Shown here: positions 15,559 through 36,056 of the stretch, in pieces | Numbering within the stretch: position 1 is the first letter of the stretch | Layout of the letters: each line of letters begins with the position of its first letter | Sequence record: PZ787336.1 | DNA from: a phage | Direction: 5' to 3' (one strand) | Length of the DNA: 47,147 nt | Made by a program: the position numbers and the translations under genes | Notes under the pieces: generated by a model | What the model saw: only the letters and a program-made list of their open reading frames with translations | What the model was told of the DNA's origin: nothing | Databases searched by the model: none

Positions 15559-15817
15559 TTAGTACGTCCTCAGCAAGTTTGCGGAACATGATTTGCACTC
15601 TTGCCACTTTGCGCCACTCAGCTTCGGTGAGAATCACATCCTCCTGCTGCGGAATTCCCGACATTTCGCATGGCGGTAATGGCTCATACTCTTGCTTCTT
15701 GCGTTTGGCTTTTCCCATGCTGACCTCTTGCGCTGCGAAGAAGTAAATTAAACAGGTTGCTGACATTAACCTCCTGCTCATGCCATGAGTAACGCCACAG
15801 CTTCTTGTGGTGGTCAT
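15542..15817 (-). CDS. hypothetical protein (start uncertain; may begin at internal Met)
   Basis: ORF begins inside a 19-bp tandem duplication. Confidence 0.4.
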   Translation of the reverse strand: MTTTRSCGVTHGMSRRLMSATCLIYFFAAQEVSMGKAKRKKQEYEPLPPCEMSGIPQQEDVILTEAEWRKVARVQIMFRKLAEDVLNEMGY

Positions 15818-15842
15818 AGCTTCTTGTGGTGGTCATAGCTTC
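15799..15842. repeat. perfect 19-bp tandem direct repeat (agcttcttgtggtggtcat x2 plus partial third copy)
   Basis: two identical adjacent copies at 15799-15817 and 15818-15836 straddling a gene boundary. Confidence 0.6.
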
Positions 15843-16245
15843 GCGTCACATCACCGTTATGAAACATAATGCGGATGCGGCTTTTCACGATGCGATAATC
15901 AATGCCAGTGGTGGTACTGATTTCTTTCACTTCCGCGCCAGCGTTATCAAGCAAATGGCACTTAATAGCATCATCAATACCGGCTGCATCATCAGAGATG
16001 AAATATTTATACTGCCACTTGCCGCCGCGAATCACTGACTTCTCGCGACGAATGAATCCAAGAGCAAGCATCTCATGTAAGCGATGCGTTGTGGTGCTTG
16101 AATGCTTACCTCCGCAATGCTTCTCAATGTATGCGCGCGTTGCTCCGGGGTGATTCATAATCACGCGCATGATTTGTGATTTATAGTCCATAATCACGCT
16201 CCTCTGCTGCCTGATTGAAGTCGTCGGAAGTGTAGAGGTGTCCAC
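15814..16245 (-). CDS. hypothetical protein, possibly truncated by the tandem duplication
   Basis: 143 aa; stop codon lies in the second repeat copy. Confidence 0.45.
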   Translation of the reverse strand: MDTSTLPTTSIRQQRSVIMDYKSQIMRVIMNHPGATRAYIEKHCGGKHSSTTTHRLHEMLALGFIRREKSVIRGGKWQYKYFISDDAAGIDDAIKCHLLDNAGAEVKEISTTTGIDYRIVKSRIRIMFHNGDVTRSYDHHKKL

Positions 16246-16426
16246 CTCTTGTGTTCCATTTCTTCATTGCCGTGGATGCGCAGCAATACGAGTCAGTGCG
16301 GCAAAAACAATCTCCGCACTCAACGTGCAACCATTCGCCGTCATCAATAACACTTACGTCATCACAACCACAAAACGGGCATTCAAGTAATTTCTCATCG
16401 TTCATTAGTAGTGTCATATTGCTCAC
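16181..16426 (-). CDS. Lar-like restriction alleviation protein (zinc-ribbon)
   Basis: 81 aa with CPFCG...C..C pattern and C-terminal KKWNTR, as in Lar-family proteins. Confidence 0.5.
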   Translation of the reverse strand: MSNMTLLMNDEKLLECPFCGCDDVSVIDDGEWLHVECGDCFCRTDSYCCASTAMKKWNTRGGHLYTSDDFNQAAEERDYGL

Positions 16427-16933
16427 CTTTTGTATTCAAAAATTTCCCGTGAACCATCTTTATGAGCCTGTTCCTCTCCTCTTTTGCTTGTGTTATTGAC
16501 GAGAATCTACCTCCATAATAATGCTTGCCATTGGCTGTAATTTGAACCCTCCACCTTTCTCGCGAAGAGTCCCAAACAACATCCTTAACTCCGCTTGTAT
16601 TATTGTTTTTCACGCCTACATTCATAACATTTTGACCTCTTGTGACCAATCTTAGGTTGCTGATGCGATTATCTTTCTTGTTCCCATTTATGTAATCAAT
16701 CTCATATCCGTTTGGTATATCTCCATTGCAAACAATCCACGCCATTCTGTGTGCGTAAAACCTCCCGATGGGGAGTTGAATTCTCCAATACCCATGCGAT
16801 GTAATACCTCCAGCCACCTTCCCTTTCTTTGATTTTCTTGAGAAATATCAATCCATAGAAAGTTTCCTGTATTTTCATCATACTGGAGGAACTTTAAAAT
16901 GCTTTCCTGACTAATGTTGCTCATTTCAACCAT
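16395..16933 (-). CDS. HNH-AP2 homing endonuclease, apparent frameshift
   Basis: N-terminal part (LQYDENTGNFLW...) in ORF 16688..16933, HNH (GYEIDYINGNKKDNRISNLR) and AP2 parts in ORF 16395..16817; frames differ by one base at a short A-run near 16819. Confidence 0.65.
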
Positions 16934-17115
16934 TCTCCCAGATTGTTAAATTTAGGTGTACCCCCAGACCAGTCGATGACATCTCTTTGCTGACTGCGCT
17001 TGCGTTGCAGGCGGTTGCGCACTTCTCGTAACTCGCACTCCAGCCATTCGCGAGTGCGCTCAACTTCATTCAACCTCTGGATTAACGATTCTTCGTACAG
17101 TTCGTCATGCGCCAT
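16921..17115 (-). CDS. hypothetical protein
   Basis: 64 aa ORF in operon. Confidence 0.4.
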   Translation of the reverse strand: MAHDELYEESLIQRLNEVERTREWLECELREVRNRLQRKRSQQRDVIDWSGGTPKFNNLGEWLK

Positions 17116-17175
17116 TTATAATTTCTCCCGTAGAATTTGATAACAACGTGCTCAACGCACAGATAACCTTCATCT

Positions 17176-17373
17176 TCAACCGTTACTGGTTGAACTATAA
17201 ACCACCGCAGATATAAGTTCGTCAGCCTTTTCACGACCCGCAACCTCCGCTTCAAGCGCCAGTGAACACATGGCGGTTTCCACAAACTTAATGGTATCCT
17301 CGCGAACGTTAAGGATTTCCATAACCTCGCGAACTTCCTTCTGGTATCTCGCTGCTATTTCTTTGTATCGCAT
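17176..17373 (-). CDS. hypothetical protein (start at ATG 17373)
   Basis: track ORF starts at a TTG at 17403 inside the promoter region; first ATG is at 17373. Confidence 0.4.
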   Translation of the reverse strand: MRYKEIAARYQKEVREVMEILNVREDTIKFVETAMCSLALEAEVAGREKADELISAVVYSSTSNG

Positions 17374-17384
17374 TTCCACATCAC

Positions 17385-17448
17385 CTTTTCCGTTGTGGTA
17401 CAATCTACGTCAACAAGTATTGACTAAATGATGTAGAAACGTCAAGAT
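17385..17448. promoter_or_regulatory. divergent promoter region (plus TTGACT at 17420-17425; minus-strand TTGACG-TAGATT element at 17401-17413)
   Basis: contains caatctacgtcaa and gatgtagaaacgtcaa, both members of the repeated motif family. Confidence 0.4.
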
Positions 17449-17472
17449 GTTTTTCGAGAAGGAGTAGTAAAT

Positions 17473-17679
17473 ATGCCAAGACCACGACGCGAGCCGATGG
17501 ACATTATCACCAGCATTGTGGAGAAGCGACAACCGCTGACACTCCGTGATGTTCGCTACTTCGCCCGTTGCTATGTGGCGCTGGCTGATATGCCTAAGGA
17601 AGATATGTATGATTTGATTCGGGCCAACTTCAGTGTTGACGAGAATAATAGAGTGACAATGAAAGAGGATGAGAAATGA
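17473..17679 (+). CDS. hypothetical protein
   Basis: 68 aa ORF with GAAGGAG RBS. Confidence 0.45.
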   Translation: MPRPRREPMDIITSIVEKRQPLTLRDVRYFARCYVALADMPKEDMYDLIRANFSVDENNRVTMKEDEK

Positions 17680-18186
17680 GGCATAGGAGAGATGAGCCGA
17701 GTAGGGAGTTTATATTGAGTTACCTTTACTACAATCCACTAACTGGGGAATTTAAATGGCTAAAGACAAGGAATAGGATTGCAGAAAAGGGAGTGTGGCT
17801 GGCTACTTAAAGCCAGATGGATATGTGCAAATAATTCTTTGCGGTAGGGCTTTTCTTGCTCACAGATTGGCATGGATATGCATTCATGGCGCGCCAGCAA
17901 GTGAAATGATTGACCACATAATGGCATTCGCAATGACAACAGGGCGTGCAATTTAAGGGAGGCCAGCAAATTTGAGAATAGCCACAACAAAGCAATGAAC
18001 AAAAACAACACTAGCGGTATCAAGGGGGTTAACTGGAGTTCATCGCACAACAAGTGGCATGCAAGAGTTGGAGTAAATGGCAAAAGATTCACAGTTGGTT
18101 ACTTTTCCGACATAAGAGAAGCAGAAGCAAAAATAAAAGAATTCAGGAGAATGCATCACAATGAGTTCACAAATCACGGGCGATAA
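17676..18186 (+). CDS. HNH-AP2 homing endonuclease, two apparent frameshifts
   Basis: N-terminal YYNPLTGEFKW in frame 1, GYLKPDGYVQI...AHRLAW...IDHI in a second frame, AP2 domain (GIKGVNWSSSHNKWHARVGVNGKRFTVGYF) in ORF 17995..18186; shifts at aaaaggg (17785-17791) and ataatgg (17918-17924). Confidence 0.65.
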
Positions 18187-18463
18187 GCGCCATACTGACG
18201 CAACAGAGCGACTCATCACCGAACGCGGTAGTCGATACGGTAAATTCAAAGACGGCGCTGAAATTATGCAGGAGTTGAAAGATGTGATGCGCGAGGTAGA
18301 TGGCTGGCGCAATCTCACACCAAGTCAACGCGAGGCGCTCGACATGATTCAGCACAAGATTGGGCGCATTCTGAATGGCGACCCGACTTATGATGACAGC
18401 TGGAAAGATATTGCTGGCTATGCAACGTTAATTGTTAATGAACTGAACGGAGAGATTAAATAA
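18161..18463 (+). CDS. hypothetical protein
   Basis: 100 aa ORF. Confidence 0.45.
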   Translation: MSSQITGDKRHTDATERLITERGSRYGKFKDGAEIMQELKDVMREVDGWRNLTPSQREALDMIQHKIGRILNGDPTYDDSWKDIAGYATLIVNELNGEIK

Positions 18464-18738
18464 TGTCTTTTTGCGACATCACAATCGCGCAGCGAAACGC
18501 GAACTTCACCAACATTACTGACACTTCCGCACAACTTGTATCACTGAACAGCGACGGCAGCGCAGTGCTGAAAATCGGCACAGAAACAGCGCAATTCATC
18601 GTGCAGAATCTGTCGCAGGCAAACGCGAAGCAGGTGCTTATTAGCACTGGTAGCGTGCTGTTTCTGGCTGGTAATTACAATGCACCGAATCTTGAGTGCT
18701 CACTGGTGCGGATTGTGGAGGATCATAATGGCGAGTAA
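18463..18738 (+). CDS. hypothetical protein
   Basis: 91 aa ORF coupled to upstream stop. Confidence 0.4.
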   Translation: MSFCDITIAQRNANFTNITDTSAQLVSLNSDGSAVLKIGTETAQFIVQNLSQANAKQVLISTGSVLFLAGNYNAPNLECSLVRIVEDHNGE

Positions 18739-19105
18739 GCCGATTCTTACGGAGGGTAGGCGCGGTAAGTCATGGCTATCCTACCCAAGTCAGTATATGT
18801 ACGATGGCTGGAGAATCGCATTCCCTGCAAAGCATTCCAATGGCAACCCAAGATTGGCTATCCTGTTCAATGAACGTAGCAATGAATGCAGCGGAACGGA
18901 AATTCAAACATTCGATTTGTATCTGCCAGCGAGTGGGAGGATGTATGAAGGGAGTGATGACGAAGCCAGATTTAGGAAGGAAAACTCACCAGCTGCCTAC
19001 ATCGTTACGGATAATCGAGGTAAACGCTATCTGGTGTTTTCTGGTAGCACTGAGCATCAGAATGCAATTATGTTTGGGTACAAGATGGAGGCGCTTTATG
19101 CGTGA
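18728..19105 (+). CDS. hypothetical protein
   Basis: 126 aa from ATG 18728 with GGAGG RBS; the track ORF starts earlier at 18680. Confidence 0.45.
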   Translation: MASKPILTEGRRGKSWLSYPSQYMYDGWRIAFPAKHSNGNPRLAILFNERSNECSGTEIQTFDLYLPASGRMYEGSDDEARFRKENSPAAYIVTDNRGKRYLVFSGSTEHQNAIMFGYKMEALYA

Positions 19106-19130
19106 CATTGGCTACGGAGAAGGTTAAAAC

Positions 19131-19156
19131 AAAGCCCCATCACGGGGCTTTTTTAT
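19131..19156. terminator. bidirectional rho-independent terminator
   Basis: GCCCCatcacGGGGC followed by tttttt, preceded by A-run. Confidence 0.65.
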
Positions 19157-19631
19157 TACGCAGAGAATTATACTGTGCCTCACACGTCAATCCTGCCTCT
19201 CTCGCCCTGTCAGCGTAATCTGCCAGCTGTTGATTTCTTTCGACAGATTTGCGGAGCACGTCTGCAAGCAAAACTCCGGTTTCTGCGGCTGGGTTGCCAA
19301 TGGACTCAGCGGTGGAATATCCGACGAGCTGCTTGCGGATACTGGTGAGTTGTTGCTGCAACCTGCCAGACTTAGCGACAGCATTAACAGCATCATTGCG
19401 CGCAGCATCAATCCTTTGCTGTGCGTCGGCCTGAATCTTTTGCAGTTCTGCATTGCGTCGTTGCTCCTCTTGTTCGTCTGCGGCCTTCTGTTCTGCGACT
19501 GCCTTCGCGTATCCGGCGGCATATTGTTGCTCGCCATAACCGGACACTTTATTTGCCACCCACAACGCGCCAGCGGCAACAATTATAATAATTGCCAGCG
19601 GTCGCCAGTATTTAACGAGAATCGACATCAT
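19140..19631 (-). CDS. Rz: i-spanin (Rz-like)
   Basis: 163 aa, N-terminal transmembrane helix, Ala/Gln/Arg-rich coiled-coil-like periplasmic region; follows endolysin and holin candidate. Confidence 0.65.
   Translation of the reverse strand: MMSILVKYWRPLAIIIIVAAGALWVANKVSGYGEQQYAAGYAKAVAEQKAADEQEEQRRNAELQKIQADAQQRIDAARNDAVNAVAKSGRLQQQLTSIRKQLVGYSTAESIGNPAAETGVLLADVLRKSVERNQQLADYADRAREAGLTCEAQYNSLRNKKAP
19187..19408 (-). CDS. Rz1: o-spanin (Rz1-like lipoprotein) embedded in the Rz gene in another frame
   Basis: MLRAMMLLMLSLSLAGC signal with LAGC lipobox, Pro-rich mature part, fully nested in 19140..19631. Confidence 0.5.
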   Translation of the reverse strand: MLRAMMLLMLSLSLAGCSNNSPVSASSSSDIPPLSPLATQPQKPEFCLQTCSANLSKEINSWQITLTGRERQD

Positions 19632-19851
19632 TGCGCAGCCTCCGGTTTTCCTTCCTCATGCCGTGCATTTTGCCGAGGATGCCGACAAGCATAATTGAGT
19701 AACTCACACCTTTGACCACGATTGGCGGTAGCGCTGCTTTCAGGTCATCCGGCATCATTACCCACACATGCATCATTGCATCAGGCCATAGTTGTAACAG
19801 CGAGCAGAATGAAATCCACGCGGCGAGCAGCCAGTTGCTTAGCTTTTTCAT
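19612..19851 (-). CDS. putative holin (two transmembrane segments, charged C-terminus)
   Basis: 79 aa membrane protein between endolysin and Rz; ATG overlaps the endolysin stop (ATGA). Confidence 0.4.
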   Translation of the reverse strand: MKKLSNWLLAAWISFCSLLQLWPDAMMHVWVMMPDDLKAALPPIVVKGVSYSIMLVGILGKMHGMRKENRRLRNDVDSR

Positions 19852-20311
19852 GCCACAGCTCCGCCAGCCTCTTTGTATACCTGAATCAGCTTATCCAGCT
19901 TCTGCTCATGCTGACCATACCCAGCGCCCGGCAATGAGGCCCAGCGGGAGCGGCATTTATGGATGGCATCAGCAATGCGACCAGCCTCAATATCAGCGGT
20001 GGCCTTGCATTCACGGATTAGCTGCATTGCAATGGCGTCCTGCGATGCGGGGAGAAGTCCGGTAAACGCAATTGCTTTTTGTACGCATCATAAAACTTAG
20101 CCAGTACCTGATAGCGACCGGCGGCGGTGGATTTAATGCCCAGCCTTGGCAGGCTAATCAGCTTGCGCGGGTGGTCGGAATAGTCGGTAAACAGTGAGCC
20201 GCCAACAATCACATCATAACCATGATTATTGGTTTTCTGCCGCCCGTTATCAGTGCCCTCGCTGTACGCCAGCATATCCAGAAACGCCTTCATGTTTTTA
20301 CTAATAGCCAT
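19848..20311 (-). CDS. endolysin, lambda R-like lytic transglycosylase, apparent -1 frameshift
   Basis: N-terminal KAFLDMLAYSEGTDNGRQKTNNHGYDVIVGG...DFSP closely matches lambda R; the C-terminal SQDAIAMQ...WASLPGAGYGQHE continues in another frame after a C4 run (plus 20049-20052). Confidence 0.8.
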
Positions 20312-20579
20312 ACCAGTAAACCTCTTTTTCAGCTTTGCGTTTTGCTTTGTCGCCAGTCTTCTCGCCCCACGCGATGAAATGCGCAACAGCACATGAGAAG
20401 CAGCGGAGGTTGTGCTTCTTCAGAAGCGTTGATTTACGGAACGCGTAAATGCCAATGTCGGTGGCAAGACTTGCCAGCGCGTCGAACTGATTCTGCGTTG
20501 TCTCGGTAGTGATGTAAGGCGATACATCCACGGCATCGGTAATTCCAAACGTCTCCACGCCTCGTTGCGATAGTTTCAT
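20301..20579 (-). CDS. hypothetical protein upstream of endolysin
   Basis: 92 aa with GGAGG RBS; stop overlaps the endolysin ATG; no clear transmembrane helix, so not called holin. Confidence 0.4.
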   Translation of the reverse strand: MKLSQRGVETFGITDAVDVSPYITTETTQNQFDALASLATDIGIYAFRKSTLLKKHNLRCFSCAVAHFIAWGEKTGDKAKRKAEKEVYWYGY

Positions 20580-25374: not shown

Positions 25375-25420
25375 ATGTCACCAATAAAAAATCCCTCACG
25401 ATGGAGGGATTATAGCATGG

Positions 25421-34769: not shown

Positions 34770-35074
34770 TGGCTAACCTGCAACTTGCTGTCAAAGGTGA
34801 ATACTTCGATGCCATGATTCGCGGAGAGAAAACGGAAGAGTATCGCCTTTTTAATGACTACTGGAAGAAGCGCCTTATTAACTTTAAAGACAGCGGACAG
34901 ATTGGAAGGAAGTACGAAAGGTTAATTATCACAAAAGGATATCCAAAGAAGGACGATAAATCCAGGCGTATTGATATCCCATACGATGGATGGACGGTTA
35001 AGACCATCACCCACCCACACTTCGGTCCTGACCCGGTGGAAGTGTTCGCAATAAAAGTTAACATCAAAGCATAA
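34769..35074 (+). CDS. ASCH-domain-like protein
   Basis: about 100 aa, pattern LAVKGEYFDAMIRGEKTEEYR resembles ASCH/PUA-like domain proteins; the track ORF starts at 34748. Confidence 0.45.
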   Translation: MANLQLAVKGEYFDAMIRGEKTEEYRLFNDYWKKRLINFKDSGQIGRKYERLIITKGYPKKDDKSRRIDIPYDGWTVKTITHPHFGPDPVEVFAIKVNIKA

Positions 35075-35075
35075 C

Positions 35076-35105
35076 AAAAACCCTCCAGTCGGAGGGTTTA
35101 TTTTA
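35076..35105. terminator. bidirectional rho-independent terminator
   Basis: aaaaaCCCTCCagtcGGAGGGtttatttt. Confidence 0.7.
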
Positions 35106-36056
35106 TCTGCTTACTGGCATTTTCTCTATCAGCTCGCCAGCGTCATAAATCTTTCTCCTGATTCTCTTTGCCATCCTTATTGTTTCAGCATCATCAGGAA
35201 GCATCACCGGAAGCCCTGCATTTTCCGCAGCGCAAAGTTCGTCGAATTTATAATTAACTATGCAGCGCAATCTCGCCTTCGTTTCATCGCTAACCGAGCG
35301 CACAACCTCCCACATGTTTTCCGGCGACCAGCAGCACCAGGCATGAGCGCCAGTGAAGTAGTGGCATTTCCACGCATCGGCATAATCAGATACCAGGTAA
35401 ATGAACTTCCCGTTGTCTTCTCCGATTGGGCTTATCGCGCCGCGCGTGAGTTTGCCGTTGATGGCTGAGTCCTTGTTGTATCCTGCGCGGAAAAACGTTC
35501 TGATTGAATCACCATCCATGCCAATGAATGCCACGTTGCACAGTTTCATTGTGTCAGCTCGCATCATCTCAACCGCAATAAGTTCTCCAGATTTGCCTCT
35601 GGTGACGTTAACGTCGCAACCAATACCATTTATCAAAGTCCACTCATTCATCGCGACACGAGTCGTTTTAGCCATGATTGCTGCGACTTCCTGCTCGGTG
35701 ATGAAGTCATCGCTGTGATTTATCTTCGGTAGCTCTTTCCTGATTGCCTCCAGCTTTTCACGCGGGTGCATATTCAGGAATCCACCAAGTGCCTCCAGCG
35801 CTTCAGGAAAGCTCATTCCGGAGAGTTTCATCAGCCAATTCATGCCGCTGCCGGAACCGCACTGATTGCAGATTGCGCCGCCATCGCCTTTTGTTTCGAA
35901 GTTGTCATCAAAGCGATACCTGTCTTTTCCTGAGCATGACGGGCATGGCTGGTGCTTGCCATTGAAAACTCTGCTATCCACATTGACGATAGACATGATG
36001 GCAGCTTGCCAATTTCCGATCATTTTTGGCTCAATGTCTTTCCAGTCGTATCTCAT
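35103..36056 (-). CDS. DNA primase (zinc-finger plus Toprim-like)
   Basis: CPSCSGKDRYRFDD...CNQCG zinc-binding motif typical of phage/plasmid primases; ATG at 36056 with AAGGG RBS; the track ORF extends to 36167. Confidence 0.7.
   Translation of the reverse strand: MRYDWKDIEPKMIGNWQAAIMSIVNVDSRVFNGKHQPCPSCSGKDRYRFDDNFETKGDGGAICNQCGSGSGMNWLMKLSGMSFPEALEALGGFLNMHPREKLEAIRKELPKINHSDDFITEQEVAAIMAKTTRVAMNEWTLINGIGCDVNVTRGKSGELIAVEMMRADTMKLCNVAFIGMDGDSIRTFFRAGYNKDSAINGKLTRGAISPIGEDNGKFIYLVSDYADAWKCHYFTGAHAWCCWSPENMWEVVRSVSDETKARLRCIVNYKFDELCAAENAGLPVMLPDDAETIRMAKRIRRKIYDAGELIEKMPVSR

What the first reader, a model, noticed from the sequence alone, without database searches (positions are those of the whole stretch)
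16395..16933. Second HNH-AP2 homing endonuclease gene, minus strand, also frameshifted at a short A-run
ORF 16688..16933 carries the N-terminal LQYDENTGNFLWID segment and ORF 16395..16817 carries HNH (GYEIDYINGNKKDNRISNLR) and AP2 (GVKDVVWDSSRERWRVQITANGKHYYGGRF). The two meet at ggaagg where ggaaagg would give one continuous protein. Two related endonucleases in one genome suggests active intron-less homing.
Basis: partly seen in the sequence, partly recalled or inferred. Interest (0 to 1): 0.4.

Follow-up and report, generated by a model that had tools for sequence, protein, structure and literature searches.

The report
Broken HNH homing endonuclease gene
This is a dead copy of a common selfish phage gene, an HNH homing endonuclease, disabled by a one-base deletion and by loss of its catalytic histidine; intact copies sit at the same spot in related phages, so it is ordinary gene decay.

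Summary
The two minus-strand ORFs exist as described, and together they are one disrupted gene of the HNH_3 plus AP2-like homing-endonuclease family. Pfam HNH_3 scores E 6e-19. AP2 is below threshold by sequence but is supported by a predicted fold and by relatives.

Escherichia phage ZCEC08 and at least 14 metagenome contigs carry the intact 176-aa gene at the same place, between a 64-aa gene and the Lar gene. Other relatives have that slot empty or filled differently.

The real lesion is a 1-nt deletion, GATAATTTC to GATATTTC, at 16846/16847. A second lesion was missed: CAC to TAC changes the HNH general-base histidine (I-HmuI His75 equivalent) to tyrosine; 157 of 159 homologues have His.

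The other copy (17676..18186, plus strand) is only 41% identical and carries two 1-nt deletions. Both endonuclease genes are therefore dead here, so there is no active homing from this genome.

Small frame-breaking indels specific to this window avoid ordinary coding sequence, which favours real decay over sequencing error. Only the reads can settle that. This is a known phenomenon and of low interest.

The parts
16395..16924 (-). Whole HNH#2 pseudogene, a free-standing HNH_3/AP2-like homing endonuclease gene. It is 530 nt; the intact orthologue is 531 nt and 176 aa.
   Evidence: 99.4-99.6% nucleotide identity to ZCEC08 CDS WVQ01306.1, annotated 'HNH homing endonuclease'. Inserting one A restores a 176-aa ORF.
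16688..16924 (-). N-terminal fragment ORF of 78 aa from the orthologous ATG. The ORF listing extends it to an upstream ATG at 16933. Only the first 26 residues (MSNISQESILKFLQYDENTGNFLWID) are native; the rest is out of frame.
   Evidence: No Pfam match.
16846..16847 (-). Site of the 1-nt deletion: GATAATTTC in all intact copies, GATATTTC here. In the HNH frame this creates a TGA immediately upstream.
16395..16817 (-). C-terminal ORF of 140 aa (GTG start) holding the HNH and AP2-like domains. The HNH frame is open from 16843.
16623..16757 (-). HNH_3 (beta-beta-alpha-metal) nuclease domain, residues 21-65 of the 140-aa ORF.
   Evidence: Pfam PF13392, E 6.3e-19. PDB 1U3E I-HmuI: E 2.4e-4 by sequence and top Foldseek hit.
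16692..16694 (-). TAC (Tyr) codon where all orthologues have CAC (His). This is the HNH general base, aligned with His75 of I-HmuI.
   Evidence: 157 of 159 homologues have His.
16449..16580 (-). AP2-like DNA-binding domain (three beta-strands plus a helix), residues 80-123 of the 140-aa ORF.
   Evidence: Pfam AP2 E 0.003, below cut-off. Model strands 80-83, 88-95 and 98-105, helix 108-123. Foldseek hits to TEM1, WRI1 and AtERF1 AP2 domains, with AtERF1 (1gcc) at rmsd 1.4 A over 51 columns.
16181..16417 (-). Downstream Lar-family restriction-alleviation gene (78 aa). Its first 23 nt overlap the 3' end of the endonuclease gene. Genomes carrying the endonuclease gene have the Lar N-terminus MTLLMNDEKLL; those lacking it have MSxPHxPMMNxEKLL.
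   Evidence: Pfam PF14354, E 6e-10..
16921..17115 (-). Upstream 64-aa gene. Its TGA overlaps the endonuclease gene's ATG (ATGA). This is the left edge of the variable slot.
17676..18186 (+). HNH#1, the other HNH_3/AP2-like endonuclease pseudogene, in the divergent operon. It has two 1-nt deletions, at 17788/9 (A5 to A4) and 17919/20 (TT to T). It is otherwise identical in protein to the intact 170-aa gene of ZCEC08.

Best explanation
The locus is a decayed copy of a free-standing homing endonuclease gene.

How the intact ancestor works (inferred from the family):
- It is the 176-aa protein seen in ZCEC08 and in metagenome contigs.
- It combines a short N-terminal motif, an HNH beta-beta-alpha-metal nuclease and an AP2-like DNA-binding domain.
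- In family members such proteins cut a relative's genome that lacks the gene during co-infection. Recombinational repair then copies the gene and its flanks across.

What the sequence shows in this genome:
- Loss of one A after codon 26 shifts the frame. Translation from the native ATG yields a 78-aa product with only 26 native residues.
- The catalytic histidine is Tyr.
- No nuclease can be made, so the gene is a fossil.
- The paralogue HNH#1 is also dead, with two frameshifts.

This fits the usual life cycle of homing endonuclease genes: invasion, fixation, then loss of selection and degeneration. Whether the lesions are in the phage DNA or only in the assembly is inferred, not shown.
For: Family assignment:
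- HNH_3 E 6e-19, PHROG 99 E 3e-47, I-HmuI as the only PDB sequence hit and the top fold hit, and an AP2-like fold.

Intact orthologues:
- They are a single ORF in ZCEC08 and on at least 14 metagenome contigs, always between the 64-aa gene and Lar.
- All nine copies examined have GATAATTTC and CAC.

Lesions:
- They are specific to this window.
- His is present in 157 of 159 homologues.

The slot is variable:
- It is empty in ST1UNAM and holds an unrelated small ORF in L012-L014.

Intact alleles elsewhere are under purifying selection: dN/dS about 0.22 for HNH#2 and 0.03 for HNH#1.

Evidence that the lesions are real rather than errors:
- Eight window-specific 1-nt deletions were found. Three lie in the two endonuclease genes (2.2% of the genome; binomial P about 6e-4). 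Four are intergenic, and two of those are a compensatory pair in a hairpin. One lies in the endolysin.
- None lies in the remaining coding sequence, although about 92% of the related ZCEC08 genome is coding.
- An independent Logan contig carries a different 1-nt deletion in HNH#1.

Literature: frameshifted, variably present endonuclease genes and the HNH+AP2 architecture are documented in phages (PMC10448857).
Against: - All four coding lesions are contractions of short homopolymers (2, 5, 2 and 5 nt). That is also the signature of run-length sequencing error.
- They lie within 4.3 kb that is otherwise nearly identical to ZCEC08. The 3.18-kb core has 5 substitutions and 3 deletions, an unusually high indel-to-substitution ratio for neutral decay.
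- One lesion breaks the only lambda-R-like endolysin, which should be essential.
- Each endonuclease gene carries two hits, which simple decay does not require.
- No other public sequence carries the same deletion.
- No reads are available.
Confidence: 0.7

Rival explanations
1. Sequencing or assembly artefact. The phage really carries intact endonuclease genes (and an intact endolysin), and the single-base deletions are homopolymer under-calls in a poorly covered stretch.
For: - All coding lesions are 1-nt contractions of runs: TT, A5, TT and G5 on the plus strand.
- They cluster in 15.8-20.1 kb.
- An endolysin frameshift is hard to reconcile with a viable lytic phage.
- The region is otherwise 99.75% identical to ZCEC08.
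Against: - Random errors should mostly fall in ordinary coding sequence, yet none of the eight window-specific 1-nt deletions does.
- The His-to-Tyr change is a substitution at the single most critical codon, not a run-length error.
- The neighbouring wHTH gene is broken by a 19-bp tandem duplication, which is not a base-calling error type.
- Independent assemblies show a different HNH#1 frameshift, and length variants of the same endolysin C-run: C6 in two contigs.
Confidence: 0.2
2. Programmed -1 ribosomal frameshift. Ribosomes slip on A_AAG_GGA (16826..16820), which is in X_XXY_YYZ phase in the N-terminal frame, and produce a full-length protein, ...QRKG-KVAGG...
For: The heptamer is in the correct phase, and a -1 slip there would give exactly the fused product (sequence).
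Against: - Nine intact orthologues read the same nucleotides in a single frame, so the motif was not selected for slippage.
- There is no downstream structure. The 97 nt from the heptamer (16826..16730) fold at -20.2 kcal/mol, z +0.62, and 146 of 200 shuffles fold as well.
- G-rich YYZ heptamers are not among the known efficient ones (my own knowledge).
- Any such product would still lack the catalytic His.
Confidence: 0.02
3. Two functional genes. The 140-aa ORF is translated from its own GTG (or from Met25) as a nuclease-dead HNH-AP2 DNA-binding protein that has been co-opted, for example as a regulator or as a protector of the homing site.
For: - The ORF keeps the whole HNH_3 and AP2-like region.
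- A purine-rich stretch, AAAGGGAAG, precedes the GTG.
- AP2-domain proteins in phages can act as DNA-binding silencers (CasPR preprint).
- AP2 transcription factors are thought to derive from such endonucleases (cited in PMC10448857).
Against: - The AAAGGG core ends only about 3 nt before the GTG, which is poor spacing.
- No other sequence shares this truncated, Tyr-bearing form, so there is no sign of conservation.
- The sister gene HNH#1 is broken into three pieces in the same genome, which points to general decay.
Confidence: 0.04

Closest known systems
HNH homing endonuclease WVQ01306.1 of Escherichia phage vB_Eco_ZCEC08 (PP213477.1, 10331..10861)
   Same: It is the orthologue: 99.4-99.6% nucleotide identity, same flanking genes (64-aa gene upstream, Lar downstream), same strand context.
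   Different: ZCEC08 has the extra A (an intact 176-aa ORF) and His in EIDHING. It has Gly where the window and other alleles have Arg in RWRVQI.
HNH+AP2 homing endonuclease family (Magnani et al. 2004, as cited in PMC10448857), including the IPA-HNH genes of Vibrio phage ICP1 with the frameshift-split gp115/gp116
   Same: N-terminal HNH nuclease plus a C-terminal AP2-type DNA-binding domain. The genes are free-standing, variably present among close relatives and often inactivated by frameshifts.
   Different: The ICP1 HNH domains are too divergent for Pfam HNH_3, whereas this one matches strongly. Here AP2 is the weaker call by sequence. No homing assay exists for this lineage.
I-HmuI, the intron-encoded HNH nicking endonuclease of Bacillus phage SPO1 (PDB 1U3E)
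   Same: Same beta-beta-alpha-metal core. Asp74, His75 and Asn96 align with D, (H to Y) and N of EID[H/Y]ING...GQN. It is the top structural match.
   Different: I-HmuI is intron-encoded and its DNA-binding C-terminal part is not AP2-like. Sequence similarity is confined to about 70 residues (E 2.4e-4).
HNH#1 of the same window (17676..18186, plus strand; intact in ZCEC08, ST1UNAM and EcoIv28_Lewi)
   Same: Same family and architecture: HNH_3 E 7e-11, AP2 E 1e-4, PHROG 99. It is also inactivated by 1-nt deletions.
   Different: Only 41% protein identity. It sits at a different insertion site in the divergent operon and retains the catalytic His codon.

Membership tests
Pfam HNH_3 (PF13392) / His-Me finger nucleases | Sequence match to the HNH_3 profile above the gathering score | tested here: met
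   67.8 bits against a cut-off of 24.8, E 6.3e-19, covering profile positions 2-46 of 46.
Pfam HNH_3 (PF13392) / His-Me finger nucleases | Catalytic general-base histidine (first H of HNH; His75 of I-HmuI) | tested here: not met
   TAC (Tyr) at 16692-16694. All orthologues have CAC, and 157 of 159 homologues have His.
Pfam HNH_3 (PF13392) / His-Me finger nucleases | Metal-binding Asp and Asn (Asp74 and Asn96 of I-HmuI) | tested here: met
   The D of EIDY and the N of RGQN align with D74 and N96 of 1U3E.
AP2 DNA-binding domain (PF00847) | Sequence match above the gathering score | tested here: inconclusive
   18.2 bits against 33.3, E 0.003. HNH#1 scores 23 bits. Many relatives at 40-50% identity carry a precomputed PF00847 hit.
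AP2 DNA-binding domain (PF00847) | Three-stranded antiparallel sheet packed on one helix | tested here: met
   AlphaFold model, pLDDT 82-88 over the domain: strands 80-83, 88-95 and 98-105, helix 108-123. Foldseek hits 7et5, 7wq5 and 1gcc (rmsd 1.4 A over 51 columns) with probability 1.00 but E 0.015-0.12.
Free-standing homing endonuclease gene | Sporadic presence among close relatives, at a fixed insertion site | tested here: met
   Present in 1 of 50,697 phage records, and of 209 records matching the surrounding 8 kb only ZCEC08 has it. Always between the 64-aa gene and Lar on the eight metagenome loci examined, of at least 14 contigs that carry it. The slot is empty or otherwise filled in relatives.
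Free-standing homing endonuclease gene | Intact reading frame encoding the nuclease | tested here: not met
   A 1-nt deletion at 16846/7 splits the gene into a 78-aa and a 140-aa ORF.
Free-standing homing endonuclease gene | Site-specific cleavage of the allele lacking the gene, and super-Mendelian inheritance in crosses | not testable with these tools
   This needs nuclease assays and co-infection crosses. The target site is unknown.

The most novel reading that the evidence does not exclude
The lesions may not be neutral decay. All four window-specific changes in the two endonuclease genes are knock-outs: three frameshifts and the catalytic His-to-Tyr change. This could reflect selection against nuclease activity in this lineage. 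The surviving 140-aa ORF, with a Tyr-bearing HNH and an AP2-like domain, might then be retained as a nuclease-dead sequence-specific DNA-binding protein, such as a regulator or a protector of the homing site.
Probability: 0.05. Interest if true: 0.45.

Novelty: already known. Interest (0 to 1): 0.12.

Why it matters
It matters little beyond annotation.
- The locus should be annotated as one pseudogene, an HNH homing endonuclease that is frameshifted and catalytically dead, not as two hypothetical proteins.
- It should not be counted as evidence of ongoing homing in this genome.
- It adds one more example to the documented pattern that phage homing endonuclease genes are gained at fixed slots and then decay (PMC10448857).
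- It marks the 15.8-20.1 kb stretch of this assembly as needing read-level verification.

Tried and rejected
Searches that found nothing:
- I looked for other sequences with the same deletion, using a pattern that allows both alleles. There were 0 hits in IMG/VR and 0 in the JGI metagenomes.
- Exact-product look-ups of the 140-aa ORF, the 78-aa ORF and the 63-aa HNH#1 fragment found nothing.
- I looked for the window's own genome in public assemblies through its tailspike and terminase products. Neither is on record, so no independent assembly or read check was possible.

Ideas tested and set aside:
- Programmed -1 frameshift at A_AAG_GGA. There is no downstream structure (z +0.62) and the motif is read in a single frame in intact orthologues.
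- Promoter and terminator scan of 16100-18400. It found 6 promoter-like sites against 4.0 +/- 2.1 expected, and 2 terminator-like sites against 2.4, so it is not informative.
- A remnant of this gene in the 214-nt gap of loci L012-L014. The segment is unrelated, a different small ORF.
- Recent duplication of the two endonuclease genes. Rejected because they are only 41% identical.
- tRNA scan of the window: none found.

Database oddity: the 90% cluster of P0001 mixes Lar proteins with the endonuclease. I treated this as a clustering artefact.

Full report
**What is in the sequence**

On the minus strand there are two overlapping ORFs. One runs 16688..16933 (81 aa) and the other 16395..16817 (140 aa, GTG start).

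The 140-aa ORF matches Pfam HNH_3 at E 6.3e-19, which is 67.8 bits against a cut-off of 24.8. It matches Pfam AP2 only at E 0.003, which is 18.2 bits against 33.3. It matches PHROG 99, "HNH endonuclease", at E 3e-47. The 81-aa ORF matches no family.

**The window and its relatives**

The window is a complete, circularly permuted siphophage genome of about 47 kb; one gene runs across the window ends. Its relatives are Escherichia phage vB_Eco_ZCEC08, Salmonella phage ST1UNAM and a large group around the genus Cedarrivervirus.

ZCEC08 carries the same gene as a single intact 176-aa CDS annotated "HNH homing endonuclease". It is 99.4-99.6% identical at the nucleotide level.

Pairwise alignment shows three differences within the gene (coordinates):
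- The window lacks one A of GATAATTTC, at 16846/16847.
- CAC has become TAC at 16692-16694.
- The window has AGG (Arg) at 16548-16550 where ZCEC08 has GGG (Gly).

Outgroup alleles P0001, P0002, P0013 and P0015 show that the deletion and the Tyr are derived in the window. The Gly is derived in ZCEC08. Eight metagenome copies and ZCEC08 all have GATAATTTC and CAC.

The two ORFs are one gene split by a frameshift. That part is right.

The lesion is not at "ggaagg". An extra A there would fuse the ORFs but would give the non-native residues ISQENQRKG. The true lesion lies about 25 nt upstream, and the native sequence after LWID is NFSRKSKKGKVAGG.

In the HNH frame the deletion creates a TGA directly at the lesion.

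The only solved relative by sequence is I-HmuI (1U3E, E 2.4e-4). Its Asp74, His75 and Asn96 align with D, Y and N of this protein. To my knowledge His75 is the general base of that enzyme. Among 159 homologues, 157 have His at this position.

**Is the C-terminal part AP2?**

Sequence evidence alone is below threshold. Three other lines support an AP2-like domain:
- An AlphaFold2 model from a shallow 9-sequence alignment has mean pLDDT 76.6. It places three strands (80-83, 88-95, 98-105) and a helix (108-123) after the HNH core.
- Foldseek against the PDB ranks I-HmuI first. Next come the plant AP2/ERF domains TEM1, WRINKLED1 and AtERF1, with AtERF1 (1gcc) at rmsd 1.4 A over 51 columns. Probabilities are 1.00 but E-values are weak, 0.015-0.12.
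- Many relatives at 40-50% identity carry precomputed PF00847 plus PF13392 hits.

I therefore accept "AP2-like" with moderate confidence.

The family is very large. It has 98,955 cluster representatives at E up to 1e-3 and 22,224 at E up to 1e-10.

**Behaviour as a mobile gene**

- HNH#2 is found in only one of 50,697 phage records. Of the 209 records that match the surrounding 8 kb, only ZCEC08 has it.
- It occurs intact on at least 14 metagenome contigs. On the eight loci examined it lies between the same 64-aa gene and a 78-aa Lar gene.
- In ST1UNAM the 64-aa gene abuts Lar directly.
- In contigs L012-L014 the slot holds an unrelated segment of about 214 nt.
- The 3' end of the endonuclease gene overlaps Lar and gives it a new N-terminus: MTLLMNDEKLL, against MSxPHxPMMNxEKLL in genomes that lack the gene.
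- G+C is 39% against 46.5% for the genome.
- Intact alleles differ by 8 synonymous and 7 non-synonymous changes, giving dN/dS of about 0.22. The gene is therefore maintained elsewhere.

The window and ZCEC08 share a 3.18-kb tract (16197..19376) with only eight differences, flanked by sequence about 90% identical. This fits recent recombinational transfer of the region that contains both endonuclease genes. Other near-identical mosaic tracts exist in these genomes, so it does not prove homing.

**The other copy**

HNH#1 (17676..18186, plus strand) lies in the divergently transcribed operon.
- It is 41% identical to HNH#2 in protein sequence. It is a family member, not a recent duplicate.
- It is intact in ZCEC08, ST1UNAM and EcoIv28_Lewi, where dN/dS is about 0.03.
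- In the window it carries two 1-nt deletions, A5 to A4 at 17788/9 and TT to T at 17919/20. It is otherwise identical in protein to the ZCEC08 copy.

Both endonuclease genes are therefore dead in this genome.

**Real mutation or sequencing error?**

I scanned the whole window against four relatives for small indels that are not multiples of three, and against all ZCEC08 proteins for frame breaks.

Window-specific frame-breaking lesions in coding sequence are:
- HNH#2, one lesion.
- HNH#1, two lesions.
- The lambda-R-like endolysin, a G5 to G4 change at 20049-52.
- A 19-bp tandem duplication in the wHTH gene at 15824-42.

The other window-specific 1-nt deletions (25395, 25405, 26217, 27308) are intergenic. 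Those at 25395 and 25405 remove one base from each arm of a hairpin, a compensatory pair.

No lesion falls in the remaining coding sequence, although about 92% of the related ZCEC08 genome is coding. Three of eight deletions landing in 2.2% of the genome has a binomial P of about 6e-4. This is the footprint of purifying selection, not of random error.

Independent support comes from other assemblies:
- A Logan contig (SRR23581745) has a different 1-nt deletion, T4 to T3, in HNH#1.
- The endolysin C-run is C6 in a JGI contig and a Logan contig, and C5 in five other sequences.

Several points argue the other way:
- All coding lesions are contractions of homopolymers.
- The indel-to-substitution ratio in this nearly identical tract is high.
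- The endolysin should be essential.
- No public sequence shares the window's alleles.
- I could not find the genome or its reads.

I put real decay at about 0.7 and artefact at about 0.2.

**Rivals considered**

A programmed -1 frameshift at the in-phase heptamer A_AAG_GGA (16826..16820) would give the fused protein. The downstream RNA is unstructured (z +0.62). Intact orthologues read these bases in a single frame. The product would still be catalytically dead.

Independent translation of the 140-aa ORF as a nuclease-dead DNA-binding protein cannot be excluded. Phage AP2 proteins can be silencers. However, nothing shows conservation of this truncated form.

**Comparison with what is known**

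The HNH plus AP2 architecture of phage homing endonucleases is described. So are their variable presence and their frequent inactivation by frameshifts, including a split HNH/AP2 pair, gp115/gp116, in phage ICP1 (PMC10448857).

The intact orthologue is already annotated in GenBank. The finding is therefore an ordinary, already known kind of feature.

Noticed in passing
window 19848..20311 (minus strand); G-run at 20049-20052: The lambda-R-like endolysin (154 aa in ZCEC08) is split into a roughly 97-aa and a 59-aa ORF by contraction of a C-run: C4 here, C5 (in frame) in ZCEC08, ST1UNAM, L022, L023 and L024, and C6 in JGI contig L019 and Logan contig L021. ENA contig L020 is disrupted elsewhere. 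As written the window has no intact endolysin. The possibilities are a run-length error, natural decay, or ribosomal slippage of tRNA-Pro on the C-run restoring the frame.
   Followed up: partly
window 20301..20579 (minus strand): The 92-aa 'lysozyme' gene upstream of the endolysin matches only positions 55-114 of Pfam Phage_lysozyme. It looks like a remnant of the 146-aa GH24 lysozyme that related phages (HC6, L004, L005) carry at this place.
   Followed up: partly
window 15824..15842 (minus-strand gene 15814..16245): A 19-bp tandem duplication (GAAGCTATGACCACCACAA), absent from all four relatives, frameshifts the winged-helix 'transcription factor' gene. The product is 143 aa with a new tail instead of 162 aa.
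   Followed up: partly
window 17676..18186 (plus strand): The other HNH_3/AP2-like endonuclease gene carries two separate 1-nt deletions (17788/9 and 17919/20), so it is read in three frames. An unrelated Logan contig (L025) has a third, different 1-nt deletion in the same gene.
   Followed up: yes
window 25395 and 25405: Two 1-nt deletions relative to ST1UNAM, HC6 and ZCEC08 remove one base from each arm of a hairpin (ATCCCTC...GAGGGAT) just upstream of the portal gene. This compensatory pair preserves the stem.
   Followed up: no
L004, L007, L009 (168-aa HNH_3 gene downstream); L006, L010 (180-aa HNH_3+AP2 gene upstream); ZCEC08 34910..35410 and 47414..47926: The same early-gene module in related contigs holds further HNH_3 genes at other slots. 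ZCEC08 has two more HNH genes that the window lacks, one of them next to the terminase. The window's terminase is only 60% identical to ZCEC08's and has no adjacent HNH gene.
   Followed up: no
protein cluster of P0001: The 90%-identity cluster represented by the intact HNH#2 protein also contains many 74-82-aa Lar proteins. This is probably an artefact of the overlapping gene pair or of a fused gene call in the database.
   Followed up: no
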